A stretch of 64,000 nucleotides of DNA from a virus: positions 1-64,000 of IMG/VR virus record IMGVR_UViG_3300044681_000098; one strand, given 5' to 3'. Shown in pieces: positions 1 through 35,530 of the stretch (positions within the stretch are counted from its first letter, which is position 1; each line of letters begins with the position of its first letter). The translations under genes were made by a program, and so were the position numbers. The notes beneath the pieces are model-generated. The model made no database searches. It was not told where the DNA came from and saw only the letters and a program-made list of their open reading frames with translations.

Positions 1-119
1 TGAAAGATGTCATGGGCACAATTGATAAGTTTTGGTCAGTCCTCAAAGAAGATGAAAAAGATTATTTGCAATCTGCTCGTTGGGCACTTGACAATAAAGC
101 AGAATGGAAGTATGATTAA
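1..119 (+). CDS. 3' end of hypothetical protein (partial)
   Basis: Open frame ...KDVMGTIDKFWSVLKEDEKDYLQSARWALDNKAEWKYD, TAA at 117-119. Confidence 0.6.
   Translation, partial: KDVMGTIDKFWSVLKEDEKDYLQSARWALDNKAEWKYD
88..116 (+). promoter_or_regulatory. sigma70-type promoter for the tRNA cluster
   Basis: TTGACA (88-93), 17 bp spacer, TATGAT (111-116), 10 nt upstream of tRNA-Thr. Confidence 0.7.
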
Positions 120-125
120 GGTTAT

Positions 126-201
126 GCTGGTTTAGCTCAGTTGGTAGAGCAACTGCCTTGTAAGCAGTAGGTCGTCAGTTCGAATCCGACAACCAGCACC
201 A
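126..201 (+). tRNA. tRNA-Thr(UGU)
   Basis: Cloverleaf: GCTGGTT/AACCAGC acceptor, ACTGC-CTTGTAA-GCAGT anticodon arm, TTCGAAT T-loop, encoded CCA. Confidence 0.97.
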
Positions 202-238
202 AATATATCGGAGTATCAGAGTTTGAAATTTGAATTTT

Positions 239-246
239 TATAAATA
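239..246 (+). promoter_or_regulatory. T4-type late promoter
   Basis: TATAAATA upstream of the GGAGG SD of the HNH gene. Confidence 0.75.
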
Positions 247-264
247 ATTGTATAGGAGGATCTT

Positions 265-738
265 ATGCAAACCAATAAAAATTCACTATCAAACTTGAAC
301 ATAGCCAATACGTTAAAACGTGGTTGTGTTCACTGCGGTAAAGAGTTAACCCTCGCTAATATCAAGAAACATGAGAAAGCATGTGGTAAACCGAAAGAGA
401 TGAAAGAATGCCCTGTCTGTGGCACTATGCATAGTAAGGGTGGAGTGACGTGTTCGTATAGTTGTTCAAATACTTACTTTAGAAGTGGTAAGAATAACCC
501 AAACTGGGGTGATAATAACTATCGACAAATATGTTTTAATACACATGGTATGAAATGTATCGTGTGTGGTGAAGAAAAGATTTTAGCTGTGCACCATTTG
601 AATGAAGATCATAGCGACAACCGACCAGAGAATTTGGTTCCGATGTGTCCTACTCATCATCAATATGTTCATAGCAAGTATAGGGATGAAGTTCAACCCT
701 ATATTGACAAGTTTCTCGGTGTAGGACAGTCTGGTTAA
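265..738 (+). CDS. Free-standing HNH homing endonuclease with zinc-finger N-terminus
   Basis: CxxC pairs, CSYSCSN, HHLNEDHSDNRPENLVPMCPTHH HNH motif; lies in the tRNA cluster. Confidence 0.88.
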   Translation: MQTNKNSLSNLNIANTLKRGCVHCGKELTLANIKKHEKACGKPKEMKECPVCGTMHSKGGVTCSYSCSNTYFRSGKNNPNWGDNNYRQICFNTHGMKCIVCGEEKILAVHHLNEDHSDNRPENLVPMCPTHHQYVHSKYRDEVQPYIDKFLGVGQSG

Positions 739-792
739 TCCGTCTGCTTTGGGAGCAGAAGATCGCAAGTTCGAATCTTGCCACCGAGACCA
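715..792 (+). tRNA. tRNA-Pro(UGG)
   Basis: CTCGGTG/CACCGAG acceptor (C1-G72, A73), TCTGC-TTTGGGA-GCAGA anticodon arm, GCAAG-TTCGAAT-CTTGC T arm, CCA. Confidence 0.93.
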
Positions 793-807
793 AAAAAAGA
801 AGTGACC

Positions 808-1470
808 ATGAAACGAATGGCAATCTATGTAAGGCATCCAGAGTGTTCCACTGATTGTGTCAACGCAATGATACATGCTTTGTCATCTGATTACCAGATA
901 AGAGTTTTCACAGAGAATGAGATAGATGATGGATTGTTTGAAGGTTTAGATGTTATTGCTATTCCTGGTGGCTTCGGTGAAGCTGATTCGTATTTTGACT
1001 TCTTCAATAGAACAACTGCGAATCGAATAGCAAAGTTTATTGAAGATGGTGGGCACTACCTTGGTATTTGTATGGGTGCTTACTGGGCTGGGTATAGATA
1101 CTTTGATATACTTGATGGCATTGACGCTGTTCAGTATATCAAGCAACCGAATGCTACGATCAGAAGATCATATTCGACTGTTGCTGAAGTTGATTGGAAT
1201 GGTACGAAAGAACATATGTACTTCTATGATGGATGTGCATTCGTTGGTGAAGTTGATAGGTGTAAGGTGATATCCAGATATGCCAATGGTGATCCAATGG
1301 CAATCATTCAAGGGAGAATCGGAGTCATCGGTTGTCATCCTGAAGCACCAAAGGATTGGTATGAAGGTAAATGGAAATACATAAACAAATACTGGAGTGA
1401 TGGCAAGCATGCCAACCTCTTGTTAGAGTTTGTCAATGAGTTATGTAATGAAACTGTAATCAATTGTTAG
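808..1470 (+). CDS. Class I glutamine amidotransferase-like (BPL_N-type) protein
   Basis: IPGG, GICMGAY nucleophile elbow, CHPE; start moved to ATG 808 because 778 lies inside tRNA-Pro. Confidence 0.75.
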   Translation: MKRMAIYVRHPECSTDCVNAMIHALSSDYQIRVFTENEIDDGLFEGLDVIAIPGGFGEADSYFDFFNRTTANRIAKFIEDGGHYLGICMGAYWAGYRYFDILDGIDAVQYIKQPNATIRRSYSTVAEVDWNGTKEHMYFYDGCAFVGEVDRCKVISRYANGDPMAIIQGRIGVIGCHPEAPKDWYEGKWKYINKYWSDGKHANLLLEFVNELCNETVINC

Positions 1471-1477
1471 AGAAGAT

Positions 1478-1560
1478 GCCCTGATGGCGGAATTGGTAGA
1501 CGCACTGGATTTAGGTTCCAGCGCTTCGGCGTGAGAGTTCGAGTCTCTCTTAGGGCACCA
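1478..1560 (+). tRNA. tRNA-Leu(UAG)
   Basis: GCCCTGA/TTAGGGC acceptor, CTGGA-TTTAGGT-TCCAG anticodon arm, long variable arm, CCA. Confidence 0.96.
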
Positions 1561-1599
1561 CTTATGTTTTGTTGAATTTTTTGTTGAAAGGAAAGTGAA

Positions 1600-2166
1600 A
1601 TGAGAATTAACTTGCGCAAAGCAAGTGCCATTCAAAGCGAGATCCAAAAGATCCTCGCAACCACTCGTCTTGATGCTGATGTTAGCGTCACCGAGTACGA
1701 AGCTAATGTAGAGGAATTTCTCTACAAAGCAACTGTTGAATTCGCCGAGAAGGCACAACGTGTGATTCAACTCAACAACTGCCTATACAACATGCGCCAT
1801 GCTGTTGCTAGTGCGAATGCACAGGCTGTCAATCACTTCCTCACTGAGATCGAGCGCACTAATCGTTTGATCGCTGTTGCTGAAACTATCAGCAAAGCAC
1901 ACGTGATGAAGCCCATCACCGAGATCCGTGCACGTTTGGAAAAACTTGCAAAGACGGATGAGTCTAGCGCACGACTGTATGGTCGTGACCACGTGACAAC
2001 TTCTGCGGTAACGCAAGAGTTGGTTGATGGTGCGAAGGGAGACTTAAAGGCTCTTAAGCGCACTCGTCAGGAACTGCAGGATAAACTTCTTGCAGAGAAC
2101 ATCAACACTACTATCGAGTTGAATGACGAAATGGTAGTGTTGTTGAAAGAGGAAGGTCTCCTCTAA
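1600..2166 (+). CDS. All-helical coiled-coil protein, DIP1984/DUF6847-like
   Basis: SD AAGGA; long amphipathic helices; N-term LRKASAIQSEIQ and C-term LKRTRQELQDKLLAENINTTIEL resemble the DIP1984 pattern (recognition from memory). Confidence 0.55.
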   Translation: MRINLRKASAIQSEIQKILATTRLDADVSVTEYEANVEEFLYKATVEFAEKAQRVIQLNNCLYNMRHAVASANAQAVNHFLTEIERTNRLIAVAETISKAHVMKPITEIRARLEKLAKTDESSARLYGRDHVTTSAVTQELVDGAKGDLKALKRTRQELQDKLLAENINTTIELNDEMVVLLKEEGLL

Positions 2167-2171
2167 TTTTC

Positions 2172-2429
2172 GAGAGGTGGATTGCGATAATAGGCGTAGA
2201 GATGTTGCCACCGTATCTTGTTTACAAGATGCTCCAAAACTACTTAACGACCTGAAATCGTATATTCTCGACTTGCTGCTGATACCATAAAACAACTGCT
2301 TGTTGCTATCAGTAATAGGAGAACATTGCTTTTTGATGATTGCGTTTTGCTGAGACCAGGACATTAAATCCGTCTGCTTGTTTTTTGCCCATGCAATGTT
2401 TCAAAACCTGTTTGACCTTTTCACCTCTC
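2172..2429 (+). ncRNA. Candidate novel structured ncRNA (~258 nt)
   Basis: 10-bp closing stem 2172-2181/2420-2429, at least five internal stems, 7-nt-periodic TTGC repeats; no + strand ORF in the track. Confidence 0.65.
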
Positions 2430-2469
2430 ACCCTTAAACTATATTGAACTATACTCATCGGAGAATTTT

Positions 2470-3021
2470 ATGAAGACAGTAGGTGATACACTTAAACCCT
2501 TTGCCGTAACAGGCATCAATCCAGGTAAAGATGACTTCTTTACCATCACAGAACAGTCCTTTGAAGGTAAATGGAAGGTTATCGTTTACTACCCAAAGGA
2601 CTTCACATTCGTATGCCCAACTGAGATTGTTGCATATGACAAACTATTCCAAGACTTTGCAGATCGTGACGCAGTATTGCTAACAGGTAGCACAGACAAT
2701 GAGTTCTGTAAACTTGCATGGCAACGTAGCCATGAAGATCTGAGCAAGATCAAACATATCCAGTTCGCTGACACACAGCGTGAGAATCCAGACACATACG
2801 AGAATCTGAGTTTGATTGAGCAACTCGGTGTGTTCTATCATCCAGCTGGCGCAGCACTTCGTGCGACATTCATTGTTGATCCAGAGAATGTTATTCAGCA
2901 CGTCACAGTCAACAACTTGAATGTTGGTCGTTCGCCTGAAGAAACTCTGCGTATCCTTGATGCGTTGCAGACTGGTGAACTCTGCGCATGTAACCGTACT
3001 GTTGGAGGAGAAACCCTATAA
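2470..3021 (+). CDS. ahpC: Peroxiredoxin (alkyl hydroperoxide reductase C)
   Basis: YPKDFTFVCPTE peroxidatic motif, GRSPEETLR, resolving Cys in GELCACN. Confidence 0.95.
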   Translation: MKTVGDTLKPFAVTGINPGKDDFFTITEQSFEGKWKVIVYYPKDFTFVCPTEIVAYDKLFQDFADRDAVLLTGSTDNEFCKLAWQRSHEDLSKIKHIQFADTQRENPDTYENLSLIEQLGVFYHPAGAALRATFIVDPENVIQHVTVNNLNVGRSPEETLRILDALQTGELCACNRTVGGETL

Positions 3022-3527
3022 TGGCATTCAACGAAACCATCAAAGGTGCGTTGCCAGAATACGCAAAGGACACCAAGCTAAACTTGGACGCTGTCCTTTT
3101 GCGTAGTACATTGGACGCTGATGTGGCAATGGGTTGTGCTGTTGCTGCATTGGCTGCTACTGGTAACGGTAAGGTATTGAGCATCCTTCTAGCAGATGGA
3201 CCAGTGCATGCAGAGTCGGCAATGACTGCAGCAAGCATCATGGCACAGAACAATGTATGGTATCCGTATGTTGAGATGGCTGATGATGAAGCACTTAAAG
3301 GTCTACCTGCACAGCTACGCATGAACGCTATTATGAACCATGGTGGCACTACAAAGGCAAACTTTGAGGCATTTAGTTTAGCTGCAAGTATTGTTGGTAA
3401 GTGTCACTTCTGTGTCAAAGCCCACTATGATACTCTCAAGAAAGAAGGTTATACTGTAGAACAACTTCGTGACATTGGACGTATTGCTTCTGTCATGAAC
3501 AGTGTAGCCAAAGTTTTGAACTCATAA
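3021..3527 (+). CDS. ahpD: Alkylhydroperoxidase AhpD
   Basis: LPEYAKDTKLNL, MAQNNVWY, GKCHFCVKAH CxxC; coupled to ahpC (TAATG). Confidence 0.92.
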   Translation: MAFNETIKGALPEYAKDTKLNLDAVLLRSTLDADVAMGCAVAALAATGNGKVLSILLADGPVHAESAMTAASIMAQNNVWYPYVEMADDEALKGLPAQLRMNAIMNHGGTTKANFEAFSLAASIVGKCHFCVKAHYDTLKKEGYTVEQLRDIGRIASVMNSVAKVLNS

Positions 3528-3535
3528 ATAGGTTC

Positions 3536-3781
3536 ATGGGAGACATAGTAAGAGACATCATCAATCGAGCAAAGTATAGTTCGTTCTATGCAGTGAAAAC
3601 TCATGTTCGAGAAGGATGGATGCCCATTGGTAAAATCCCATACGACCTTCAGATAACAGGAGAGGACATGATAGTTCGTGTCCTCGCCATAAACGAAACT
3701 GAAGCAGTCAAACGTGTTAGTACTTGGTTAAGCGAGCAGTTAGAAGTTGGTAATGACTGGAGATTAGGATATGATCAATGA
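3536..3781 (+). CDS. Hypothetical protein
   Basis: ORF after a CATAAATA late-promoter-like motif (3523-3530). Confidence 0.6.
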   Translation: MGDIVRDIINRAKYSSFYAVKTHVREGWMPIGKIPYDLQITGEDMIVRVLAINETEAVKRVSTWLSEQLEVGNDWRLGYDQ

Positions 3782-3950
3782 CGTACCCACCATCGCACTT
3801 AAAGAACATAAGTTTGTAAGATTCCCACATCAAAACATAACATTCAAATTTACTCGAGAGAAAGGAGAAGATTGGAAAGTTAGCGTGACCGATGAACAAC
3901 TAAACGAAATTGTTCAAAGGATTGCAGTTACGATCGATGACGGAAAATAA
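3771..3950 (+). CDS. Hypothetical protein (59 aa, not in ORF track)
   Basis: MINDVPTIALKEHKFVRFPHQ...TIDDGK* fills the gap. Confidence 0.5.
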   Translation: MINDVPTIALKEHKFVRFPHQNITFKFTREKGEDWKVSVTDEQLNEIVQRIAVTIDDGK

Positions 3951-3960
3951 GGAGATGTCT

Positions 3961-4221
3961 ATGTCGAGCGAAGAAACCAAAGAAGCAAGAAGTCGCCGAA
4001 ACCTTAAGACAATCAGTGCATGTTTGAAGCAAGCAAAGATTGCCAAAGCACATGGTCTGCAAGTTGACACCGTGCACTACTACGCAAAGCATCATGCAAT
4101 GGATTGCGGAAACCCAAAGTGTGTCATGTGTGGAAACCCAAGGAAAACGTGGAAAGAAAAGACAATCCAAGAGAAGCGATCCGACTCTGGACTAAGGCAT
4201 ATTGAGTTCGATTCAGCCTAA
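3961..4221 (+). CDS. Hypothetical Cys/His protein
   Basis: SD TAAGGAG before ATG 3961; HHAMDCGNPKCVMCGNPRK motif. Confidence 0.7.
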   Translation: MSSEETKEARSRRNLKTISACLKQAKIAKAHGLQVDTVHYYAKHHAMDCGNPKCVMCGNPRKTWKEKTIQEKRSDSGLRHIEFDSA

Positions 4222-4229
4222 AAACCCCT

Positions 4230-4298
4230 AAAACCCTGCCAAAAGTAGGGTTTTTCAGCCAAAAACCTTAGAAAAACCCTCATTTTTTGAGGGTTTTT
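4230..4298. terminator. Two stem-loops (terminator / promoter-cassette hairpins)
   Basis: AAACCCTGC-caaaa-GTAGGGTTT and AAAAACCCTCA-ttttt-TGAGGGTTTTT. Confidence 0.7.
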
Positions 4299-4310
4299 TG
4301 CATTTAGTGC

Positions 4311-4339
4311 TTGACTTTTATTCGGAATTGTTGTATAAT
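4311..4339 (+). promoter_or_regulatory. Early sigma70-type promoter
   Basis: TTGACT, 17 bp spacer, TATAAT. Confidence 0.88.
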
Positions 4340-4369
4340 ATATCCATGAAAGTCGAAAAGGAAAAGAAA

Positions 4370-4759
4370 ATGTCTGATCTGAAAATTACCCTCCCTGCTG
4401 GTCGTTACTTCGTTGGTGATGTCGGTGGTGTTAGTCGTCCATACGTTGCCATCCCTGCTCGGTCTTCGGTGTTCTACTCTGATTGTGGCGCTGTTGAAAT
4501 TGAGATTGCTGGTGGTGGTTCGTGCATGCCTGATGTCGATGCCTTTTCGATCTTCGGTGTCTGCGATGCTGATGATGTCTTTGGCAGTGCTGATTGCGCT
4601 GACGAAAATGGTGTGATTGAATTGACATACCCCACTGAAGTCGTTTACAATTTTGACTATCTTGAGATTGTGAATGTGCTGAAGTTTTCGGTGTGCCGTG
4701 ATGCTGGTCTGAAGTTTACTTCGACTGAAGAAGAATTTGATGGTGCTTCGTTCGCCTGA
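4370..4759 (+). CDS. Hypothetical acidic early protein
   Basis: SD AAGGA; starts MSDLKITLPAGRYFVGD. Confidence 0.7.
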   Translation: MSDLKITLPAGRYFVGDVGGVSRPYVAIPARSSVFYSDCGAVEIEIAGGGSCMPDVDAFSIFGVCDADDVFGSADCADENGVIELTYPTEVVYNFDYLEIVNVLKFSVCRDAGLKFTSTEEEFDGASFA

Positions 4760-4765
4760 GGAAAT

Positions 4766-4942
4766 ATGATGTACGAGAAATACGAATCCGACTTGGCTGT
4801 TGTGAAAAAAGAATTGGAATCTCAAGGTATCAAGAACTATACCGTATACCCTGCCAATAACTGTGTTGGTGTCACCTATGGTCGTGTTAGTTCGTATTAC
4901 ATTGTGAAAAACGGTGTCGTTGTTGACATCCAAATTGACTGA
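4766..4942 (+). CDS. Hypothetical protein (58 aa, not in ORF track)
   Basis: SD GAGGA; MMYEKYESDLAVVKKELESQG...VVDIQID*. Confidence 0.7.
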   Translation: MMYEKYESDLAVVKKELESQGIKNYTVYPANNCVGVTYGRVSSYYIVKNGVVVDIQID

Positions 4943-4951
4943 GGATATATC

Positions 4952-5650
4952 ATGAAACTGTTGACTGTGGGAAACCCCAAATTGCTCAAAGGTGCCAAGA
5001 AAGGTTATCTGTCTTCTGTGCTGCACTTTGCACCTGCGGATCTGTCAGGTAAAGAAGTTTGCCCTAAGCGCACTGCTGGTTGCACAGCTGCATGCCTGAA
5101 CACTGCTGGTCGTGGTGGTATCTTCAAGAAAGGTGAATCGACCAATGTGATTCAGCAAGCACGTATCCGTAAGACCAAGATGTTCTTTGAGAATCGTGCT
5201 GGCTTCTTGAGCGAGTTGTATGCTGAGATTCGTAAGACGATCACTTATGCCGAGAAGAAAGGTTTGATCCCTGTGTTCCGACTGAATGGCACCAGCGATC
5301 TGGCTTGGGAGAAGTATGAAGTGCAAGAAGGTAAGAACATTTTCCAGATGTTCCCTAACGTGCAATTCTATGACTATACTAAGGTGAACAATCGTAAGGT
5401 TAGCCATATTCCTAACTACCACCTGACTTTCTCTAAAGCAGATGGCAACGATATGGACGTGCGTATTGCCCTGTCCAATGGTATGAATGTGGCTGCGGTC
5501 TTCCGCAAAGAGTTGCCTGAGACTTATCTGGGTCGTAAGGTTATCAATGGAGACGAAACTGATCTTCGTTTTCTGGATGAAAAGAATGTGATCGTGGGTC
5601 TGAAGGCTAAAGGTAAAGCCAAGAAAGACACTTCTGGTTTTGTTATTTAA
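4952..5650 (+). CDS. Gp88-family protein (Cys cluster, radical-SAM-like)
   Basis: CPKRTAGCTAACL, RLNGTSD, FYDYTK, GDETDLRFLD motifs. Confidence 0.8.
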   Translation: MKLLTVGNPKLLKGAKKGYLSSVLHFAPADLSGKEVCPKRTAGCTAACLNTAGRGGIFKKGESTNVIQQARIRKTKMFFENRAGFLSELYAEIRKTITYAEKKGLIPVFRLNGTSDLAWEKYEVQEGKNIFQMFPNVQFYDYTKVNNRKVSHIPNYHLTFSKADGNDMDVRIALSNGMNVAAVFRKELPETYLGRKVINGDETDLRFLDEKNVIVGLKAKGKAKKDTSGFVI

Positions 5651-5660
5651 GGAGATTGAC

Positions 5661-6137
5661 ATGGGTTTGGATATGTACTTGGACGCTAAGCGATACTTGT
5701 CTCGTCACTTCGATCACTTCGGTGAAGGTGATACCGAGATCATCGAGACCTGCAATCGTATGCTTGGCATCGATGGTAGTGATGATGAAGACTATTCGGT
5801 GAAGGAAGTTACGGTGCGTGTAGCCTACTGGCGTAAAGCCAATGCCATTCATAGGTGGTTCATTGATAACTGCTCGGACGATGGCGTTGACGACTGCCGA
5901 CCGATGTATGTTAGCACAGACCAGCTGAAGCAGCTGCGAAACGTATGCAGTGAGGTGCTAGCAGATCGTAGTAAAGCAGACCAGTTGCTTCCGACTATGA
6001 CTGGTTTCTTCTTTGGAAACAATGACTATGGCGACTATTACTTTGAGGATGTTCAGCATACGTTGGATCGCCTAGATAAGATTTTGAGCGATAAGAGTTT
6101 GGAACGATGTGATTTTTACTATCAAGCGAGTTGGTAA
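5661..6137 (+). CDS. Conserved phage hypothetical protein
   Basis: SD AAGGAG; MGLDMYL, YWRKANAIHRWF, GFFFG, YYQASW. Confidence 0.8.
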   Translation: MGLDMYLDAKRYLSRHFDHFGEGDTEIIETCNRMLGIDGSDDEDYSVKEVTVRVAYWRKANAIHRWFIDNCSDDGVDDCRPMYVSTDQLKQLRNVCSEVLADRSKADQLLPTMTGFFFGNNDYGDYYFEDVQHTLDRLDKILSDKSLERCDFYYQASW

Positions 6138-6553
6138 TGCGTTGGATTGAGAATGTTAGTATGAGCGATATTCATCTTGGTCACCATAGTGATCTGGGTG
6201 AAAACACGATGCTGATCCGTATACAGGATCCAGCGACTGAGTTCAAGAGCACCAAGTATACTTTCAAAGAGGAACATCGCTTTGAGTTTCTGGATGCCGA
6301 GGACGAAGATGGTTTCCCAGATGAGACCAAGATCAGCGATCAGCAAGCAGCCGAACTCGTTGCTTTGTTGAATCGTGCATTGGCTACTAACATGAATGTC
6401 ATGGTTCACTGCCATGCAGGTATCTGCCGTAGTGGTGCTGTGACTGAAGTTGGAACGATGATAGGGTTTACTGCTACGGAAAGATTCCGTCAACCAAACC
6501 TGCGAGTCAAATACAAAATGATGAAAGAATTGGGGCTAACCTATGGGAACTAA
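6137..6553 (+). CDS. Protein tyrosine / dual-specificity phosphatase-like
   Basis: VHCHAGICRS CX5R P-loop; TAATG coupling. Confidence 0.82.
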   Translation: MRWIENVSMSDIHLGHHSDLGENTMLIRIQDPATEFKSTKYTFKEEHRFEFLDAEDEDGFPDETKISDQQAAELVALLNRALATNMNVMVHCHAGICRSGAVTEVGTMIGFTATERFRQPNLRVKYKMMKELGLTYGN

Positions 6554-6923
6554 CTACTACGTTGCAACCAAGCATTGCGAGTCATGCAATCGTTATGATG
6601 AGGAATATCATATTGGAAAGTCCAGCTGGGGCTGGGCTTTCTCATTCCAAGGTTATAAGCCAGAGCGACTGATCTCATGGCAAGCATGGAAGACTTTCCT
6701 TAAAGATAAGATCATCATGGATGAGTATGGCGACCGACACGACTACGATGATTTTGTAGAGATGATAGAGGGAGTCAAATCACCTAACTTCACCTATCCA
6801 GATGGTCATAAAAACCTTCAGCATAACACTCAGGGCAAGATAGACTCACGCCCATGGTTCAATCCTGAATACGACTGGGACGATCCAGAAGGTTATGCAT
6901 TCTGCTCAAGGGAATTCTCATGA
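6543..6923 (+). CDS. Hypothetical protein
   Basis: MGTNYY, HIGKSSWGWAFSF, EFS; recurrent phage family. Confidence 0.75.
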   Translation: MGTNYYVATKHCESCNRYDEEYHIGKSSWGWAFSFQGYKPERLISWQAWKTFLKDKIIMDEYGDRHDYDDFVEMIEGVKSPNFTYPDGHKNLQHNTQGKIDSRPWFNPEYDWDDPEGYAFCSREFS

Positions 6924-7186
6924 CATCAGCCAACAACAGAAAGAATAGCCAAATGAACATGGATGAACAAAACCTAATAGAACTAAGCAATGCCGTAGAC
7001 CTAACCCTAATGCATATAAGCGAGACATTCGAGGTAGGAACACTAAACCTATCTGCTATTATATTGGCTAGGCTAATGGTACTAAGCCATGAGACTGATA
7101 CGAATGATGACTTCATAAGGCTATTAGCTAGTGTAGTAGGGGATAAGACCATGCAGGTTAGACCTGAAATGCCATCTATGCACTGA
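6920..7186 (+). CDS. Hypothetical protein
   Basis: Overlapping ATGA junction. Confidence 0.55.
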   Translation: MTSANNRKNSQMNMDEQNLIELSNAVDLTLMHISETFEVGTLNLSAIILARLMVLSHETDTNDDFIRLLASVVGDKTMQVRPEMPSMH

Positions 7187-7195
7187 GGAGCTAAC

Positions 7196-7285
7196 ATGAG
7201 TGAACTAGCAATTTTAGCATCTGTTATGATATCCTTTGCCTTTGGTTTCTTACTAGGCTACATTACTGGGAGTGTGAGATTATGA
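7196..7285 (+). CDS. Small membrane peptide (29 aa)
   Basis: SD GAGGAG; MSELAILASVMISFAFGFLLGYITGSVRL*. Confidence 0.55.
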   Translation: MSELAILASVMISFAFGFLLGYITGSVRL

Positions 7286-7500
7286 ACGAACGAATTAAAG
7301 AACTTGCTAAACAGGCTGGATTCTTAAACAAAGATGAAGAATCTATCGAATATTTCGCCGAGTTGATTGTCAAGGAATGCGTTCAGACCTTGCTGGATAA
7401 CACACCAGAGCAGTCAGCCGAGGAAGATTGGGATAAGGGATATGATCGAGCAATGAGGGATTGTGTGCACCATATCAAAGAACATTTCGGAGTTGAATGA
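7282..7500 (+). CDS. Hypothetical protein (MNERIKELA...HFGVE family)
   Basis: Recurrent small phage protein pattern. Confidence 0.75.
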   Translation: MNERIKELAKQAGFLNKDEESIEYFAELIVKECVQTLLDNTPEQSAEEDWDKGYDRAMRDCVHHIKEHFGVE

Positions 7501-7597
7501 GGTTGAGGTGGTTATATAGGAGCGGATTATATGGGGAGAAAATGAAGAGAGAAAATAGAGGTGTTAGCGTTGATGTTGCTCCGTTGGTTTATACAGG

Positions 7598-7605
7598 TAT
7601 AAATA
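7598..7605 (+). promoter_or_regulatory. T4-type late promoter
   Basis: TATAAATA. Confidence 0.65.
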
Positions 7606-7648
7606 GTAATCGCACACCAAAATATACCGACCCAGGAGCAGCAGCACC

Positions 7649-7942
7649 ATGACATACCGTACTAAGACATGCCCACAGTGTTATACTGAGCACAAGCAGC
7701 GTGGTCCATACTGCTCGAAGTCATGCAGCAATAAAGGTAGGACGATATCGAAGGCGACCATAGAGAAGCATCGTGAGAATACGACACGCATGATGAATAG
7801 TAATACTGATACAGCCGAGAAGATCAAGTGGGCGCTCAATGCTTCTAGGGATGAGGTGGAAGAGGGATTACCGATGCCGACTTTCGATGATCTTGGATAT
7901 GGGCAGTTTAGAGCCGATGGTGATCTTTGGGAGGAAAAATAA
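7649..7942 (+). CDS. Zinc-finger DNA-binding-like protein
   Basis: CPQC...CSKSCSN; SD AGGAG. Confidence 0.7.
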   Translation: MTYRTKTCPQCYTEHKQRGPYCSKSCSNKGRTISKATIEKHRENTTRMMNSNTDTAEKIKWALNASRDEVEEGLPMPTFDDLGYGQFRADGDLWEEK

Positions 7943-8070
7943 AGTTTGCAATCATTGACTTAGGGCTTGACTTCAGGCATAATTTACGGTGCTAGGGATG
8001 ATAATGATGCATAGTGTATGGATAGGTGTATAGGCTAATAACCCTACTAGGCTGAGGGGATTAGAGCACG

Positions 8071-20091: not shown

Positions 20092-20783
20092 CCATAGTAG
20101 TTCCCTGCAAGAATGAAGAAAACTATATCCATCATTTGCTGTATAGTCTACGCAAGCAGGACATTGGTCAGACACGCATCATCATAGCAGATGCCAGCAC
20201 AGACAATACTAGAGCAGTGATCGAAGCCAACAAAGGCACACTAAACGTAGAAGTGATAGAAGGTGGACCTGTCAGTATTGCTAAGAATAATGGTGCTAGA
20301 TTAGCAACTACACCTTACATTCTATTCATTGACAGCGATGTGCGTTTCTTCAAAGACACAGTGATACATGATTGTGTTCGCATACTGGAAGAAAAGCAAT
20401 TAGACCTAATAGGATTGTACATCAAGTGTTATGACAATGACTTTGTAGCCAAGATAGGTTTTACTCTGTTCAATGCTATCAACGCTGTTATGCAATACTT
20501 CATTCCTTTCGCTGTAGGTGCATTCTTTCTAACACGCAGAGATAAGTTTGAAGAACTAGGTGGCTTCCCTGCTCGCTACGAAACATCGGAAGACTTTTTC
20601 CTAAGCAAGATGTATGATGTCAAGAACTTTACGCTTGTACATCACTATTTTGGGCAGGACAGCAGAAGATTCAAGAAGATGGGCTACTTTGGTATGGCTT
20701 GGTATCTTATTAAAAACTTTTGGAATCGTAACAACCAAAAATATTGGGATAGCATAGACTATTCCAAATATTGGGATAAATAA
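20073..20783 (+). CDS. Family 2 glycosyltransferase
   Basis: IVVPCKNEE, DASTDNT, AKNNGA, FIDSD (DxD), GGF...SEDFFLS. Confidence 0.9.
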   Translation: MLSEKITIVVPCKNEENYIHHLLYSLRKQDIGQTRIIIADASTDNTRAVIEANKGTLNVEVIEGGPVSIAKNNGARLATTPYILFIDSDVRFFKDTVIHDCVRILEEKQLDLIGLYIKCYDNDFVAKIGFTLFNAINAVMQYFIPFAVGAFFLTRRDKFEELGGFPARYETSEDFFLSKMYDVKNFTLVHHYFGQDSRRFKKMGYFGMAWYLIKNFWNRNNQKYWDSIDYSKYWDK

Positions 20784-20787
20784 AAGA

Positions 20788-21107
20788 ATTGTTGTAATCC
20801 CTTCAAAGCGAAGGACTTCTGGACGAGGGTTCGATTCCCTCCATCTCCACCAAAAGCATTCTATCCCCACCTGACGAGGAAGGATCGAAAGAACTAAAAA
20901 GAATGCTTCTGATGGGGATGATCTGGTTTCGACAGGGGTAGATAGCAGAGACGGCAACACGGTAGGCGATGACCGAAACAAGATTCCATAAGGAATAACT
21001 TGGATGACAAAGCAAATCAAAGTAAACGCAAACGAAGAAGTTTACGCTCTTGCTGCCTAAAGCAAGATGAGGTTTCGGCAGGTGTCCTTATAATCAAATC
21101 ACCTGCC
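20788..21107 (+). ncRNA. ssrA: Circularly permuted (two-piece) tmRNA
   Basis: Acceptor piece ends GGGTTCGATTCCC...CATCTCC-A-CCA (20852); coding piece starts GGGGATG (20914) giving G3-U70; tag ANEEVYALAA* at 21028-21060; outer ends approximate. Confidence 0.93.
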
Positions 21108-21129
21108 ACTTATTCTTTTAGGGGGATTT

Positions 21130-21387
21130 ATGCAAAAAGTATTAGTAGGTATTCTCGCAGCACTATTATCATTATCAGTGTTTGCTGCTGAGCCAGTAAA
21201 GAAAAAAGAGCCAGCAAAGAAACAAGCTACAACGCAAAAGGCACCAGCTAAAAAAGCTGATGCCCCTAAACATGCTGACGCAGAAACTCAAAAATCAGTA
21301 ATGGCTAAAGCAAAAGAAAAGATGGCTGAAAAGAAAAAGAAACAAGAGGAAGCTGCTGCTAAGAAGAAGCAGCAACCTAAGAAATAA
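21130..21387 (+). CDS. Secreted Lys/Ala-rich low-complexity protein
   Basis: Signal peptide ending VFA; PAKK repeats. Confidence 0.75.
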   Translation: MQKVLVGILAALLSLSVFAAEPVKKKEPAKKQATTQKAPAKKADAPKHADAETQKSVMAKAKEKMAEKKKKQEEAAAKKKQQPKK

Positions 21388-27870: not shown

Positions 27871-28148
27871 TGATGCGTCAAGCAATTGAATCCCAGACCC
27901 TGAACTTTGCAGTTATGCGTGACCTAGTCGGTCTCGAGAAGTTACTCAAGGATCTGACAATGCAGCGTAAGAAACTTGATGCTTGGTTCGACAAGTATCT
28001 CGACAAGTTTGATCGCCAAATGGATCCAGCTGACCCTAAGACTGCAGTATGGGTATTATACAACAAGAAATTTTCCGAGTATGAGGAACTGAAGGGTTGT
28101 ATCACTACAGTGACTTACTACCGAGACAAGGTTAAGAAGAATGTTTGA
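27867..28148 (+). CDS. Hypothetical protein
   Basis: SD AAGGAG; coupled ORF. Confidence 0.7.
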   Translation: MMMRQAIESQTLNFAVMRDLVGLEKLLKDLTMQRKKLDAWFDKYLDKFDRQMDPADPKTAVWVLYNKKFSEYEELKGCITTVTYYRDKVKKNV

Positions 28149-28359
28149 AGATTCGAACTCTTTCTCGACTTACATCGAGAAGAAGGTGCGTGAGGGTAAA
28201 GGTCTTACGCACCTTGATGCCGTCCTAACATATTGCAAGGAGAACTTCATCGATCCTGAAGAAATGAAGAAACTCATAAATAAATCTCTAAGGGAAAAGA
28301 TTGAACTCGACTTTCAAAATGAAGGATACCTTCCAAAGAATGCGACACTAGACTTATGA
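28141..28359 (+). CDS. 33: Late transcription coactivator gp33
   Basis: FSTYIEKKV...HLDAVLTYCKENFIDPE...LINKSLREKIE; synteny with 59 and 32. Confidence 0.85.
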   Translation: MFEDSNSFSTYIEKKVREGKGLTHLDAVLTYCKENFIDPEEMKKLINKSLREKIELDFQNEGYLPKNATLDL

Positions 28360-28360
28360 T

Positions 28361-28966
28361 ATGGATGGGTTCAAAGCGTATAAGTATTACATGGCAACTA
28401 AGTTGCATTTTACCACTGACAAGTTTGATGTTTTTACCAATAGGAATGTAAAGGGAACTCGTGATGCGTATAACAATCGAAACGATCGTTACTTATTTGA
28501 GAAACTTGCAAGAAAGTTTTCTTCAGACCATGATCTCATTCAGTATTATGTGGCAAACATGGCTTACGGAAACATCGGCGTTATTTATAGTGATCTTGAT
28601 GCAGAAGATAATCTACTCACTTGGGTAAAACGTAAACAGTCTATCACTAAAGTCTTTTCAGACGACTTATCAAAGATAGTATTTCATCTAGAGACGAATA
28701 AAAAGTCCCAGTCAGAACTATTCACTTTTGATCATGACAATTTCCCAGAATTACTCAAGATGTTTCTTGGAGACCATGTTACTTTGGAAACGATGGTCAT
28801 CTTGGATCACTACACACAATACCTACCTGAATGGAAGAAGTTTACAAACTTGCTTTGGGAGGAAGAATGTCGTAGAATAGTTAAATCAAAGGGATTCGTT
28901 AAGTTTGACGAATCAAGAACAACCTCAGTTTACCAACATTTTTTACAGGAACTTCAAGAGTTATAA
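28361..28966 (+). CDS. 59: Helicase loader gp59
   Basis: AYKYYMATKLHFT...RNDRYLFEKLA...LETMVIL. Confidence 0.88.
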   Translation: MDGFKAYKYYMATKLHFTTDKFDVFTNRNVKGTRDAYNNRNDRYLFEKLARKFSSDHDLIQYYVANMAYGNIGVIYSDLDAEDNLLTWVKRKQSITKVFSDDLSKIVFHLETNKKSQSELFTFDHDNFPELLKMFLGDHVTLETMVILDHYTQYLPEWKKFTNLLWEEECRRIVKSKGFVKFDESRTTSVYQHFLQELQEL

Positions 28967-28967
28967 A

Positions 28968-29159
28968 ATGGGACGAACATATAGGCGAGAGAAGAACGAA
29001 TACGAAGATAACTTCTACTCGAAAAAAAGTAAGAACTCTGCCAAGAAGCAGAAAAAAGAATTTATTGCTCGTGGTATGAGAGCACTAAATAATGATACCG
29101 AGGATTCTTTTATTGAATCTGAGGTATACAAAAACCATACTAAACGTAATATACATTAA
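28968..29159 (+). CDS. Small basic hypothetical protein
   Basis: MGRTYRREK. Confidence 0.55.
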   Translation: MGRTYRREKNEYEDNFYSKKSKNSAKKQKKEFIARGMRALNNDTEDSFIESEVYKNHTKRNIH

Positions 29160-29182
29160 ACATACGACAAAGGAAAACATAC

Positions 29183-30115
29183 ATGGATATCACAGCCCTT
29201 CGCAAAATGCGCAATAACGACTTCTCTAAAATCACTGGTGAGTTTGAGAAGATCGCTAACCCTTCTACAGAAACTAAGTCTTACAAAGACGATCGTGTCT
29301 GGAAACTTGAGCCAGATAAAGCAGGTAACGCTACTGCAGTTATTCGCTTTCTTCCTCGCTCAGAGGGTGACGAACTCCCATGGGTTCGTATCTTTAACCA
29401 CTCATTCCAAGGTCCAACTGGTAAGTGGTATATTGAAAACTCTCTAACAACCCTCAACGAAAAAGATCCTGTCGGTGAACTGAATTCACGTTTGTGGAAT
29501 TCTGGTTCGGAAGCCAACAAGGAAATTGCTCGTAAGCAAAAGCGTAAACTTACCTACATTGCTAACGTGCTTATCGTTTCTGATCCTAAGCATCCAGAAA
29601 ACGAAGGTAAGGTTATGTTGTTTAAGTTTGGTAAGAAAATCTTTGATAAGATTATGGACAAGGCTCGTCCTACTTTCGAAGATGAGAAACCAGTCAACGT
29701 ATTTGACTTGTGGGAAGGTGCAGACTTCAAACTGCGTATGCGTAAAGTAGATGGTTATGCCAACTACGACCAATCTCAGTTTATGGAACCATCTGCTCTT
29801 TTTGATGGTGATGAGGAAAAACTACTTGAGGTAGTTAGCAAGCAATACAAACTCTCAGAGTTTCTTGATGCTAAGAACTTCAAGTCTTTCGATGAACTTG
29901 CTAAGAAGCTAGCAGATGTGTTGGATGAAACTGCACCAACTCGTAAGGCTGCTGCGGAGATGGAAGATCAAGATGATTACACTCCACCTGCAAAGTTCAA
30001 AGCAGTTGAGTCAAAGCCAATTGCTTCGAAACCTGAACCTGCAATGGCATCAGCATCGTCAGAAGATGATGAGGATATGATGTCATACTTCCAAAAGATT
30101 GCCAACGAAAAGTAA
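29183..30115 (+). CDS. 32: Single-stranded DNA-binding protein gp32
   Basis: DDRVWK, AVIRFLP, WYIENSLTT, FGKKIFDK, NYDQS, acidic tail. Confidence 0.96.
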   Translation: MDITALRKMRNNDFSKITGEFEKIANPSTETKSYKDDRVWKLEPDKAGNATAVIRFLPRSEGDELPWVRIFNHSFQGPTGKWYIENSLTTLNEKDPVGELNSRLWNSGSEANKEIARKQKRKLTYIANVLIVSDPKHPENEGKVMLFKFGKKIFDKIMDKARPTFEDEKPVNVFDLWEGADFKLRMRKVDGYANYDQSQFMEPSALFDGDEEKLLEVVSKQYKLSEFLDAKNFKSFDELAKKLADVLDETAPTRKAAAEMEDQDDYTPPAKFKAVESKPIASKPEPAMASASSEDDEDMMSYFQKIANEK

Positions 30116-30135
30116 TCTTAGGATATACCAAAAAG

Positions 30136-30159
30136 AAAGGGAGCGAAAGCTCCCTTTTT
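30136..30159. terminator. Bidirectional terminator between convergent genes
   Basis: AAAGGGAGC-GAAA-GCTCCCTTTTT. Confidence 0.9.
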
Positions 30160-30163
30160 CATT

Positions 30164-32269: not shown

Positions 32270-32408
32270 TTCTTTGTGCCTGTTGTCTAAGTTTTTCTTC
32301 TTCTAAAAATTGTAATAATAAAGACACATATACTTCACGCTCAAATGGAACCATATCTTCTAGTTCTGATAAACTATATTTATGATATTGCATTAAGGCG
32401 AAGTTCAT
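32262..32408 (-). CDS. 51: gp51-like baseplate hub assembly protein (not in track; probably reached by frameshift)
   Basis: MNFALMQYHKYSLSELEDMVPFEREVYVSLL...; the frame is open upstream through the gp26 stop. Confidence 0.8.
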   Translation of the reverse strand: MNFALMQYHKYSLSELEDMVPFEREVYVSLLLQFLEEEKLRQQAQRNG

Positions 32409-32446
32409 TTTGTAGTAGTTGTGGAGCGATTCGTGGCAAAGGTTTA

Positions 32447-33160: not shown

Positions 33161-33164
33161 AGTA

Positions 33165-33581: not shown

Positions 33582-33597
33582 AATATTTCATTCCTTA

Positions 33598-35024: not shown

Positions 35025-35032
35025 GAGTATAT

Positions 35033-35473: not shown

Positions 35474-35514
35474 AAATAATTCTGTTGAATATGGACAGTC
35501 TTCAACTATTTATA
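35471..35514. promoter_or_regulatory. Face-to-face late promoters for the two structural operons
   Basis: CATAAATA (+, 35471-35478) and TATAAATA (-, 35514-35507). Confidence 0.75.
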
Positions 35515-35530
35515 GAGAGAAACATAACAA

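What the first reader, a model, noticed from the sequence alone, without database searches (positions are those of the whole stretch)
1600..2429. Candidate undescribed protein-ncRNA system: DIP1984-like coiled-coil gene followed by a closed ~258-nt RNA with 7-nt-periodic UUGC repeats
Seen: 5 nt after the stop, GAGAGGTGGA (2172-2181) pairs with TTCACCTCTC (2420-2429) and encloses almost the whole 300-nt gap, which is unusually long for this dense genome. Internal stems are GTATCTTG/CAAGATGC (2213-2232), ACGA/TCGT, a long TGCTGATA/TATCAGTA arm capped by CAAC/GTTG, AACATTGC/GCAATGTT (2322-2329/2393-2400), AGAC/GTCT and TCAAA/TTTGA. Four heptamers sit in exact 7-nt register (TTGCTTT TTGATGA TTGCGTT TTGCTGA, 2326-2353), with a second pair at 2296/2303 and CTGCTTGTT duplicated (2296, 2374). 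TGC occurs 13 times versus GCA once on this strand (hand count), which suggests a single-stranded RNA motif. The gene leader also carries TTTTGTTGAA twice (1567, 1579). Inference: the helical protein resembles the DIP1984/DUF6847 family, recalled as forming ring or barrel oligomers. A repeat-per-subunit RNA would fit an oligomeric ribonucleoprotein, an RNA antitoxin (type III-like) or an autoregulatory decoy, co-transcribed behind tRNA-Leu.
Basis: partly seen in the sequence, partly recalled or inferred. Interest (0 to 1): 0.85.

Follow-up and report, generated by a model that had tools for sequence, protein, structure and literature searches.

The report
Phage heptad-repeat RNA with partner protein
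The 300 "empty" bases behind a small helical-protein gene of this freshwater T4-like phage encode a real, evolutionarily conserved folded RNA with a track of UUG triplets spaced every 7 bases. The RNA always travels with that gene in large phages, matches no catalogued RNA family, and probably forms an undescribed protein-RNA particle whose job is unknown.

Summary
Bases 2172-2433 (+) form a closed RNA. The 10-bp closing stem, most internal stems, the four in-register heptads and the TGC/GCA bias (13 vs 1) are all there.

Comparative data make it a true RNA gene:
- More than 30 related elements lie 1-5 nt after the homologous ~190-aa gene.
- 93.5% of cells pair, against about 42% for slid controls, and 30 of 43 pairs show compensatory change.
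- A covariance model built without the window finds 2166-2435 as the window's best hit (E 1.8e-5).
- UUG spacing of 7, 14 and 21 nt is enriched (z = 25, 15 and 11.5).
- No Rfam 15 family matches, including RAGATH-27.

Gene and RNA stay linked in every clade examined. This holds where the order is reversed, and in cultured Vibrio and Brevundimonas jumbo phages.

New here: the gene's 5' leader carries the same UUGAA(UUGAA) box as the RNA, next to the ribosome-binding site. The protein is also predicted to self-associate.

Best reading (about 45%): a stable RNA, cut out of the tRNA operon by tRNA-processing enzymes, is bound along its UUG track by the oligomeric helical protein, which autoregulates through the leader box. 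The function is unknown.

This scan has already reported look-alike "heptad-repeat RNA plus helical partner" pairs on other phage DNA. I could not show sequence homology to those.

The parts
1478..1560 (+). tRNA-Leu(UAG), 39 nt upstream of the gene. The unit sits in a tRNA cluster.
   Evidence: ARAGORN; Rfam
1567..1592 (+). mRNA leader. It holds two copies of UUUUGUUGAA (1567, 1579). The second runs into UUGAAAGGA (1584-1592), the family's leader box, which overlaps the Shine-Dalgarno sequence.
   Evidence: Sequence. UUGAA(A)(A)GGA is in the leader of 12 of 20 core relatives, against 6 sites elsewhere in 307 kb, and there are only 4 sites in the window on both strands. The exact UUGAAUUGAA occurs 6 times in leaders, 6 times in RNAs and once elsewhere in about 300 kb.
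1600..2166 (+). Gene for a 188-aa all-helical protein, the partner protein. The N-terminus MxINLRKA is conserved, as are R66, N73 and N167.
   Evidence: ORF; homologues; alignment A4; AF2 pLDDT 84.8; homodimer model
2172..2433 (+). The structured non-coding RNA: closing stem P1, interior, and 3' ACC(C) tail.
2172..2181 (+). P1, 5' strand (pairs with 2420-2429).
   Evidence: In relatives, 10 of 11 P1 pairs show compensatory changes.
2186..2194 (+). GAUAAUAGG, the family motif GAUARGAGA. UAA 2188-2190 can pair with UUG 2412-2414, and AGG 2192-2194 with CCU 2407-2409 (helices 2 and 3 of the family model).
   Evidence: Alignments; helix 3 covaries; threading onto the window (inferred by homology)
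2213..2232 (+). P2 hairpin, GUAUCUUG/CAAGAUGC. Its sequence varies in relatives but it is always a hairpin.
2247..2261 (+). P3 hairpin, ACGA/UCGU, with the conserved 7-nt loop CCUGAAA (family consensus YUUGAAA).
   Evidence: helix 5: all 5 pairs covary
2265..2323 (+). Domain closed by P5 (UUCUC 2265-2269 with GAGAA 2319-2323). It contains P6 (2277-2284 with 2307-2314) and the conserved single-stranded CUGCUUGUUG (2296-2305).
   Evidence: (helices 6, 7)
2326..2353 (+). Four UUGNNNN heptads in exact register.
2353..2375 (+). Hairpin inserted into the heptad track (AGAC/GUCU, GGA/UCC). It is shared, with different sequence, by L004, L032 and L039.
2374..2400 (+). Second U/G-rich stretch (CUGCUUG UUUUUUG) and the hairpin UUGC-CCAU-GCAA (2385-2396), equivalent to the family's UUGC-N3-GCGA. 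GCAAUGUU can alternatively pair with 2322-2329.
   Evidence: (helix 9)
2407..2416 (+). 3' box CCUGUUUGAC, at the position of the family's GCUUGAAUUGAA box.
2420..2433 (+). P1 3' strand (2420-2429) followed by the ACCC tail (2430-2433).
   Evidence: ACC follows P1 in most relatives. In L032 and L039 a tRNA gene starts within 1-3 nt of it.

Best explanation
Bases 2172-2433 encode a stable, trans-acting structured RNA of a phage-specific family. It works together with the helical protein encoded just upstream, as a ribonucleoprotein.

Proposed steps:
1. Gene and RNA are transcribed together. Here that is behind tRNA-Leu; in many relatives it is from their own sigma-70-type early promoter.
2. The 10-12-bp closing stem plus the 3' ACC tail resembles an acceptor/T-arm minihelix. 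The enzymes that mature the neighbouring tRNAs (RNase P, 3' trimming) therefore cut the RNA out and leave a nuclease-resistant closed molecule.
3. The protein, which self-associates, binds the single-stranded track of UUG triplets spaced 7 nt apart, one triplet per binding site, as HutP does with its NAG triplets. It also binds the UUGAA box near the closing stem.
4. Surplus protein binds the look-alike UUGAA box that overlaps its own ribosome-binding site and represses its own translation.

Shown: the RNA is real and conserved, it is linked to the gene, the heptad periodicity holds, and the leader and RNA share a box.
Inferred: processing, binding, autoregulation.
The cellular target of the particle is unknown.
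For: RNA reality:
- The about 255-265 nt after the gene are conserved in more than 30 loci, with indels that are not multiples of 3.
- On 29 sequences, 93.5% of cells pair against 34-43% for slid partners. 30 of 43 pairs have double changes, and 0 of 500 shuffles reach the observed values.
- Model R2, built only from L004, L032 and L039, finds window 2166-2435 full length at 23.8 bits, E 1.8e-5. It is the only such hit in the 73.7-kb record.
- The family structure threads onto the window with canonical pairs only.

Linkage:
- 16 of 16 true RNA hits found by an RNA-only pattern scan have the gene 4-5 nt upstream.
- 67 of 77 loci have a BLAST-detectable element next to the gene. Of the rest, 4 lack flanking sequence, 4 are singletons with their own closed or heptad element, and 2 carry only a truncated weak homologue.
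- In clade C the RNA lies about 282 nt upstream of the gene, so linkage survives rearrangement.
- Cultured Vibrio phage 2.275.O and Brevundimonas phage Bambus have a 273-nt and a 314-nt gap after the homologue, each with a closing stem and UUG or UGC periodic units.

Heptads: spacing 7 is seen 67 times against 5.9 +/- 2.5 expected (z 25). Spacings 14, 21 and 28 are also enriched.

Processing: ACC follows P1 in most members, and tRNA genes abut it in L032 and L039. There is no terminator or promoter inside the unit. One RNA-library contig spans 2022-2249.

Protein:
- The family has 2027 representatives.
- The homodimer model gives ipSAE 0.55 against a best control of 0.01. That mark was reached by 20 of 30 proteins solved as pairs and 1 of 23 solved as single chains. 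The runs share at least 97% of contacts, and partner pLDDT is 85.

Autoregulation: the exact UUGAAUUGAA occurs 6 times in 0.9 kb of leaders, 6 times in 5.5 kb of RNAs and once in about 300 kb elsewhere. UUGAA(A)(A)GGA is in 12 of 20 leaders against 6 sites in 307 kb.

Precedent: the HutP hexamer reads triplets separated by 4-nt spacers (PMC2425495).
Against: - No binding experiment or RNA-protein structure exists.
- The protein family is not basic (median pI 6.4, net charge about 0) and has no known RNA-binding domain.
- Heptad regularity is weak in clades B and C.
- The window's own leader has UUGUUGAA rather than UUGAAUUGAA, and its 3' box is diverged.
- The ACC tail is not universal (GCC, AUC and UCC occur), and clades C and D have other tails.
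- The RNA-library contig may derive from DNA and cannot show RNA ends.
- Sequences in the covariation and motif counts are related by descent, so the counts overstate the number of independent events.
Confidence: 0.45

Rival explanations
1. A stable RNA that acts on its own or on a host factor, for example a sponge for a host UUG- or U/G-binding protein, or an RNA-only assembly like ROOL or GOLLD. The upstream protein would be a co-expressed helper or unrelated passenger that does not bind the RNA.
For: - The RNA is conserved and structured.
- The protein is not basic and has no RNA-binding domain.
- Repeat-bearing sponge RNAs such as CsrB, with its GGA heptamers, are an established precedent (my own knowledge).
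- GOLLD sits in the same tRNA arrays (L003:887-1349).
- RNA-only cages are known for GOLLD and ROOL (PMC12286853, listed).
Against: - The gene-RNA linkage is kept across all clades and through a change of gene order.
- The box shared by the gene's leader and the RNA is hard to explain if the protein never meets the RNA.
Confidence: 0.25
2. A cis-acting part of the gene's mRNA: a 3' UTR that stabilises, localises or processes the message, or a decoy for the protein that has no function of its own.
For: - The RNA starts 1-5 nt after the stop codon and is co-transcribed.
- A closed 3' structure would block 3' exonucleases.
Against: - In clade C the RNA lies upstream and is separated from the gene by another ORF.
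- 260 nt of multi-helix structure with conserved single-stranded motifs and a tRNA-like end is far more than a stabiliser needs.
- tRNAs that abut it imply it is cut free.
Confidence: 0.1
3. A type III-like toxin-antitoxin or abortive-infection pair in which the repeat RNA neutralises a toxic protein.
Against: - The units are 7 nt and embedded in a single folded RNA. They are not tandem units of about 36 nt that are cleaved into monomers.
- The RNA follows the gene rather than preceding it.
- The protein is an all-helical hairpin bundle, not a ToxN/Kid-like endoribonuclease.
- PADLOC gives only noise-level coiled-coil hits.
- The pair occurs in lytic T4-like and jumbo phages, and none was found in 185,579 bacterial and archaeal genomes with the N-terminal motif scan.
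Confidence: 0.04
4. Not an RNA gene: a DNA-level element (iterons, a promoter cluster, an origin) or unannotated small ORFs.
For: - TTGNNN units resemble -35 hexamers.
- Short ORFs exist on both strands.
Against: - Compensatory base-pair changes occur in 30 of 43 pairs.
- There is strand asymmetry in folding and in TGC/GCA.
- Element lengths of 252-278 nt differ by non-multiples of 3, and no frame is consistently open.
Confidence: 0.02

Closest known systems
The 'heptad-repeat phage RNA with helical partner protein' pairs noted earlier by this scan on other phage DNA, whose first 86 nt are said to match RAGATH-27 (Rfam RF03100)
   Same: A small helical-protein gene is followed at once by a closed 250-450-nt RNA with 7-nt periodic units, often in tRNA clusters. 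It is uncatalogued and its function is unknown.
   Different: - RF03100 does not match this element or 9 related loci.
- By-sequence look-ups found no shared stretch.
- I found neither an A4-profile homologue in bases 1-100,000 of phage T5, nor PF20935 in the whole T5 record, nor RAGATH-27 in its tRNA region.
Membership of one superfamily is likely by architecture but is not shown by sequence.
HutP (and TRAP): ring oligomers that read short triplets at fixed spacing on single-stranded RNA
   Same: The RNA shows triplets (here UUG) repeated with 4-nt spacers, the 7-nt period that HutP reads as NAG-N4 (PMC2425495). The protein here is predicted to self-associate.
   Different: - The fold is different (all-helical) and there is no sequence relation.
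- Here the triplet track lies inside a stand-alone folded RNA, not in an mRNA terminator.
- Binding is not shown.
Stable RNAs of phage tRNA clusters (T4 species 1 and 2 RNAs; T5 RNAI, RNAIII, RNA1, RNA2, RNAX 'stable RNA with unknown functions')
   Same: They are encoded among phage tRNA genes, are expected to be released by tRNA-processing enzymes, have tRNA-like ends, and have unknown function (T5 annotation; the T4 part is from my own knowledge).
   Different: Those RNAs have no described partner protein or heptad track, and no sequence match was found.
DIP1984 (PDB 3kdq) / DUF6847 (PF20935) helical proteins
   Same: - 3kdq is the top structural hit of the partner protein in both aligners, covering 140 of its 152 residues.
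- An Atlas cluster of 149-aa viral proteins, 19% of which carry PF20935, aligns at TM 0.65/0.80.
   Different: - Z 9.1 does not stand clear of unrelated helical proteins (8.5).
- The Pfam and NCBIfam profiles give no hit.
- This protein is about 40 residues longer.
- These families have no known function either.
Ribosomal-protein-type autoregulation (an mRNA operator that mimics the rRNA binding site)
   Same: The same 10-mer box occurs in the partner RNA and, next to the Shine-Dalgarno sequence, in the protein's own leader.
   Different: This is inferred from sequence only. The window's leader carries a variant, UUGUUGAA twice.

Membership tests
RAGATH-27 RNA (Rfam RF03100) | Match to the covariance model at or above the gathering score (76.1 bits) | tested here: not met
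   No hit at the element. The best hits in the record score 14 bits and lie elsewhere. There is no hit at E<=1 in window 1-8000 or at E<=0.1 in 9 related loci.
Any Rfam 15 family (tmRNA, 6S, RNase P, SRP, GOLLD, ROOL, Y RNA and others) | cmscan match over the element | tested here: not met
   Searches hit only tRNAs and one GOLLD elsewhere. ARAGORN finds no tmRNA here.
Scan's heptad-repeat RNA plus helical partner pair | Helical ~150-190-aa gene immediately next to a closed 250-450-nt RNA | tested here: met
Scan's heptad-repeat RNA plus helical partner pair | Evenly spaced 7-nt units in the RNA | tested here: met
Scan's heptad-repeat RNA plus helical partner pair | Sequence or profile homology of protein or RNA to previously noted members (T5 relatives and others) | tested here: inconclusive
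   By-sequence look-ups were empty. T5 itself has no A4-profile hit in bases 1-100,000 and no PF20935 hit in the whole record. The sequences of earlier members were not available to me.
DUF6847 (PF20935) / DIP1984 family | Pfam or NCBIfam profile match above cut-off | tested here: not met
   No PF20935 hit at E<=0.1. No DIP1984 NCBIfam hit. The six-frame search of the record is empty.
DUF6847 (PF20935) / DIP1984 family | Same fold as PDB 3kdq | tested here: inconclusive
   Foldseek rank 1, probability 0.99 but E 0.057. VIA Z 9.1, rmsd 7.1, 140 residues aligned, with the next unrelated helical chains at Z 8.5. Atlas TM 0.65/0.80 to a cluster that is 19% PF20935.
Type III toxin-antitoxin (ToxIN-like) | Tandem RNA repeats of about 34-36 nt upstream of a ToxN/AbiQ-type endoribonuclease gene | tested here: not met
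   The units are 7 nt, the RNA is downstream and it is a single folded molecule. The protein is all-helical. PADLOC finds no ToxN-type family.
tRNA-like / RNase P substrate RNAs | Terminal helix of about 12 bp with a 3' NCCA-type tail | tested here: inconclusive
   P1 is 10-12 bp and followed by ACC in most members, with tRNAs abutting in L032 and L039. Cleavage was not tested, and there is no T-arm or D-arm.
HutP/TRAP-type triplet-reading oligomers | Protein of the HutP or TRAP fold | tested here: not met
   No Pfam hit. The model is an all-helical bundle.

The most novel reading that the evidence does not exclude
The helical protein polymerises or forms a ring on the RNA, with one subunit site per 7-nt UUG unit. 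This would be a new mode of sequence-specific protein-RNA recognition and a new phage ribonucleoprotein. Large phages make it early from the tRNA operon to act on the host's translation, tRNA or transcription machinery. In one clade an RNA polymerase omega-like gene sits between the RNA and the partner gene.
Probability: 0.25. Interest if true: 0.9.

Novelty: categorically new. Interest (0 to 1): 0.8.

Why it matters
Structured RNAs of about 260 nt with strong covariation and no known relatives are rare. One that is always tied to a protein gene of a 2000-cluster viral family, sits in phage tRNA operons and shows a strict 7-nt triplet track points to an unknown ribonucleoprotein. That particle would be widespread in aquatic T4-like and jumbo phages.

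It offers a testable case of periodic RNA reading by a helical protein, and a likely autoregulatory loop. It may also explain part of the long-known but unexplained "stable RNAs" of phage tRNA clusters.

Cultured carriers exist (a Vibrio phage and several Brevundimonas jumbo phages), so the question is directly open to experiment.

Tried and rejected
I used the search for related loci instead.
- Direct BLAST or nhmmer of the window's gap against relatives gave only weak co-located hits. Homology needed the bridge through L004, L032 and L039 and model R2. Model R1, from the core group, scored the window's copy at only 15 bits and misaligned it.
- Known families were rejected. All Rfam families, including RAGATH-27, gave no match. 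ARAGORN finds no tmRNA here, and the window's real two-piece tmRNA is at 20760-21151.
- Protein profile and sequence searches (Pfam, PHROGs, NCBIfam, PADLOC, PDB) gave nothing above noise. A weak phrog_25230 match (E 2e-4) has no annotated function.
- Link to phage T5, claimed in earlier scan notes: there is no A4-profile hit in T5 bases 1-100,000, no RAGATH-27 in bases 27-44 kb, and no PF20935 in the whole record. I did not search the last 21.7 kb of T5 with the A4 profile.
- A tblastn of the window's protein against 50,697 phage records found nothing. Only a clade-C query reached distant cultured homologues.
- A scan of 185,579 bacterial and archaeal genomes with the N-terminal motif found no relative. 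This is one pattern only, so it is not proof of absence.
- A pattern scan for more members of the window's own subgroup found only the L004 contig again.
- Model R2 did not reach clades B, C or D. Their kinship rests on position, closing stem, shared motifs and weak R1 hits (E about 0.003).
- Reads: all runs are assembled contigs, so RNA ends, strand and level could not be read. RNA run X19 covered only the tRNA and the downstream gene.
- Literature searches for RAGATH-27, DUF6847 and DIP1984 returned no relevant paper.
Full report
**What is there.** The window is the first 64 kb of a 73.7-kb IMG/VR virus record. An earlier scan note calls it a T4-like freshwater phage. tRNA-Leu (1478-1560) is followed by a 188-aa ORF (1600-2166), then 303 nt without a credible ORF, then an AhpC-like and an AhpD-like gene. 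The + strand of the gap folds markedly better than shuffles (z = -3.45). The - strand does not (z = -1.93).

**Relatives.** The protein has no Pfam, NCBIfam or PDB sequence match. It does belong to a large, almost purely viral family:
- 6 close clusters in the 90% database;
- 82 loci in viral and metagenome contigs;
- 2027 representatives at E<=1e-3 in the 50% library.

An all-against-all comparison of the DNA downstream of these genes showed that the first 255-265 nt after the stop codon are conserved at 70-85% identity in over 20 loci. The similarity begins at nucleotide 1-2 and ends abruptly. The alignment shows indels that are not multiples of three and a closing stem that changes sequence while keeping its pairing. 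Examples are GAGAGGUGG/CCACCUCUC here, GGAGGUAAGAA/UUCUUAUCUCC in L002 and GGGGAACAGUG/CAUUGUUCCUC in L003.

**Structure and covariation.** I built covariance model R1 from 15 core sequences (267 positions, 43 pairs). It finds full-length hits of 55-260 bits directly after the gene in all group-A loci. On the 29-sequence alignment:
- 93.5% of cells form standard pairs, against 34-43% when partners are slid by 1-3 columns;
- 30 of 43 pairs show changes on both sides;
- none of 500 column shuffles reaches any observed measure.

The alignment was fitted to the model and the sequences are related, so these figures lean towards the structure. The slid-partner contrast and the many pair types still make an RNA-level constraint very likely.

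The architecture, 5' to 3', is:
- P1, a 10-12-bp closing stem;
- a conserved GAUARGAGA junction whose UAA and GAG pair with the 3' box;
- a variable hairpin P2;
- hairpin P3 with a YUUGAAA loop;
- a domain closed by P5 that holds P6, P7 and single-stranded CUGCUUGUUG;
- the heptad track;
- a small UUGC-N3-GCGA hairpin;
- the GCUUGAAUUGAA box;
- the P1 3' strand and an ACC tail.

**Is the window's copy a member?** R1 scores it at only 15 bits and misaligns it. By eye it aligns best to the L004/L032/L039 subgroup. Model R2, built from those three sequences alone, finds window 2166-2435 over the full model at 23.8 bits, E 1.8e-5. That is the best hit in the window and the only one in the record. 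R2 scores undoubted core members similarly (L002 at 23.9 bits, L008 at 20.4, L026 at 44.3). All family helices thread onto the window with canonical pairs, and with covariation relative to relatives:
- P5 is UUCUC/GAGAA, against GUCCA/UGGAC;
- P6 is CUGAUA/UAUCAG, against CUGGG/CCCAG;
- helix 3 is AGG/CCU, against GAG/CUU.

**Heptads.** I took 22 elements from all clades and compared the distances between UUG triplets with dinucleotide shuffles.

| Spacing (nt) | Observed | Expected | z |
|---|---|---|---|
| 7 | 67 | 5.9 +/- 2.5 | 25 |
| 14 | 43 | 5.6 +/- 2.5 | 15 |
| 21 | 33 | 5.7 +/- 2.4 | 11.5 |
| 28 | 25 | 5.3 +/- 2.4 | 8 |

A strict test (at least 4 of 6 UUG in register) marks one site in the whole window, at 2326. 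It marks 15 loci next to the gene and only 2 other clusters in 429 kb. Regularity is lower in clades B and C.

**Linkage.**
- An RNA-only pattern scan of 2.9 million viral contigs gave 25 matches. The 16 that R1 confirms all have the gene 4-5 nt upstream.
- Of 77 loci, 67 carry a BLAST-detectable element of one of four clades beside the gene. Four others lack the needed flank. Four singletons (L019, L021, L041, L047) have their own non-coding stretch with closing-stem, P3-type hairpin and/or heptad features after the gene. Two have only a truncated 133-aa weak homologue and no element.
- In clade C (26 loci by BLAST) the RNA lies about 282 nt upstream of the gene. An ORF with an RNA polymerase omega/Rpb6 domain (PF01192, 37.4 bits) lies between them. 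Linkage thus survives a change of order.
- Distant cultured homologues exist in Vibrio phage 2.275.O (349 kb) and in five Brevundimonas jumbo phages. Behind the gene there are gaps of 273 and 314 nt, each with a closing stem (GUGCGAUA/UAUCGCAC, and a 14-bp GC-rich stem ending ...CCCACCC). They carry UUG heptads or 14-nt UGC-rich repeats, and in the Vibrio phage an intrinsic terminator.

**Context and processing.** In group A the pair sits inside arrays of dozens of tRNA genes, and one locus also carries GOLLD. P1 is followed by ACC in most members. In L032 and L039 the next tRNA starts within 1-3 nt of that tail. In L004, L027, L024 and L047 a tRNA follows within a few to about 13 nt. A 10-12-bp terminal helix plus ACC resembles the acceptor/T minihelix that RNase P and the CCA-adding enzyme recognise (established knowledge). 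Release by the tRNA-processing machinery is therefore my inference.

In this window no promoter-like or terminator-like site separates tRNA-Leu, the gene and the RNA. One 228-nt contig of a metatranscriptome run spans 2022-2249, crossing the stop codon into the RNA. That is a weak hint only, because the data are contigs and DNA carry-over is possible. Many relatives have a near-consensus sigma-70-type promoter (TTGACT...TATAAT) right before the gene, which suggests early expression by host polymerase.

**The protein.**
- AlphaFold2 with 58 homologues gives an all-helical hairpin bundle (pLDDT 84.8).
- The best PDB match in both aligners is 3kdq, an uncharacterised Corynebacterium diphtheriae protein. 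Foldseek gives probability 0.99 and E 0.057. VIA gives Z 9.1, rmsd 7.1 and 140 aligned residues, with unrelated helical proteins reaching 8.5.
- The ESM Atlas places it next to a 2572-member, mostly viral cluster of 149-aa proteins, 19% of which carry PF20935/DUF6847 (feature score 0.91, TM 0.65/0.80).
- The profiles themselves do not match. The 'DIP1984/DUF6847-like' label is a plausible remote relation, not a membership.
- A homodimer prediction reached the mark. ipSAE is 0.55, against a best control of 0.01. The mark was reached by 20 of 30 proteins solved as pairs and 1 of 23 solved as single chains. The runs agree in at least 97% of contacts, and partner pLDDT is 85. My own alignment was used, so these counts hold only roughly.
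- The family is not basic (median pI 6.4), which counts against generic RNA binding.

**A new clue: the leader mimics the RNA.** In many core loci the short 5' leader of the gene carries UUGAAUUGAA immediately before the Shine-Dalgarno AAGGA. This is the same 10-mer as the conserved 3' box of the RNA.
- Exact copies: 6 in 0.9 kb of leaders, 6 in 5.5 kb of RNAs and 1 in about 300 kb of other sequence.
- The shorter UUGAA(A)(A)GGA is in 12 of 20 leaders, against 6 sites in 307 kb. It occurs at 1584 in this window, one of 4 sites on both strands.

A binding site shared by a partner RNA and the protein's own ribosome-binding region is the classic signature of autoregulated RNA-binding proteins, for example ribosomal proteins (established knowledge). 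That raises my odds that protein and RNA interact.

**Comparison with the known.**
- No Rfam 15 family matches.
- Literature searches for RAGATH-27, DUF6847 and DIP1984 found nothing relevant.
- Mechanistically, the nearest precedent for a 7-nt triplet period is HutP, whose hexamer reads NAG triplets separated by 4-nt spacers (PMC2425495).
- By context, the nearest are the stable RNAs of unknown function in the T4 and T5 tRNA clusters (T5 annotation).
- This scan has already reported, on at least 33 other genomes, 'heptad-repeat phage RNA with helical partner protein' pairs with RAGATH-27 as closest known. The present pair has the same architecture. I could not show sequence homology to those, and I could not reproduce the claimed presence in T5 itself.

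**Verdict.** The RNA gene is real (about 95%), and its coupling to the helical-protein gene is very likely functional (about 80%). A direct RNP with heptad reading, tRNA-type processing and leader autoregulation is the best-supported mechanism, at about 45% as a whole. The biological role is unknown.

Noticed in passing
L010:4733-5029 (also L048, L011, L042 and other clade-C loci): A phage-encoded 98-aa ORF with an RNA polymerase omega/Rpb6 domain (PF01192, 37.4 bits; N-terminus resembles bacterial RpoZ). It lies between the RNA and the partner gene and overlaps the partner gene's start by 29 nt. No such gene is in the window's 73.7-kb record.
   Followed up: partly
L003:887-1349: A GOLLD RNA (RF02032, 191 bits) inside the same tRNA array that holds the gene-RNA pair.
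   Followed up: no
window 2470-3527: The phage carries an AhpC/TSA peroxiredoxin (2470-3021) followed directly by an AhpD/CMD-family gene (3021-3527). This is a peroxide-detoxifying pair right behind the RNA, and it is not conserved next to the pair in relatives.
   Followed up: no
L010:1720-3615: A full-length Hsp70/DnaK gene (PF00012, E 1e-272) and two 2OG-Fe(II) oxygenase genes in the marine clade-C phage contigs.
   Followed up: no
Upstream of the gene in L003, L004, L005, L012, L025, L027, L032, L035, L013, L076, L041: Near-consensus sigma-70-type promoters (TTGACT/TTGCCT, 17 nt, TATAAT) lie directly before the partner gene. This implies early, host-polymerase-driven expression. The window's copy lacks one and follows tRNA-Leu.
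   Followed up: partly
L008:2272-2358 and L012:433-522: tRNA-Sec-model hits (47.1 bits, at the gathering score of 47, and 34 bits) within phage tRNA arrays. They may be long-arm class II tRNAs rather than true tRNA-Sec.
   Followed up: no
window 778-1470: A 230-aa ORF between tRNA-Pro and tRNA-Leu with a BPL_N / class-I glutamine amidotransferase-like domain (PF09825, E 5e-14).
   Followed up: no
L115 (phage T5 NC_005859) 28000-41600: The T5 record annotates eight 'stable RNAs with unknown functions' among its tRNA genes, including a 719-nt RNAX (40848-41566). Rfam finds a tRNA-like hit at 41432-41503 inside it.
   Followed up: no
window 37702-37768 (-): A weak hit of RNA model R2 (14.1 bits, E about 0.01), covering only 67 nt. 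It is probably noise.
   Followed up: no
window 2022-2249: A 228-nt contig from a metatranscriptome run (X11) matches with one mismatch and bridges the end of the gene and the first 78 nt of the RNA.
   Followed up: partly
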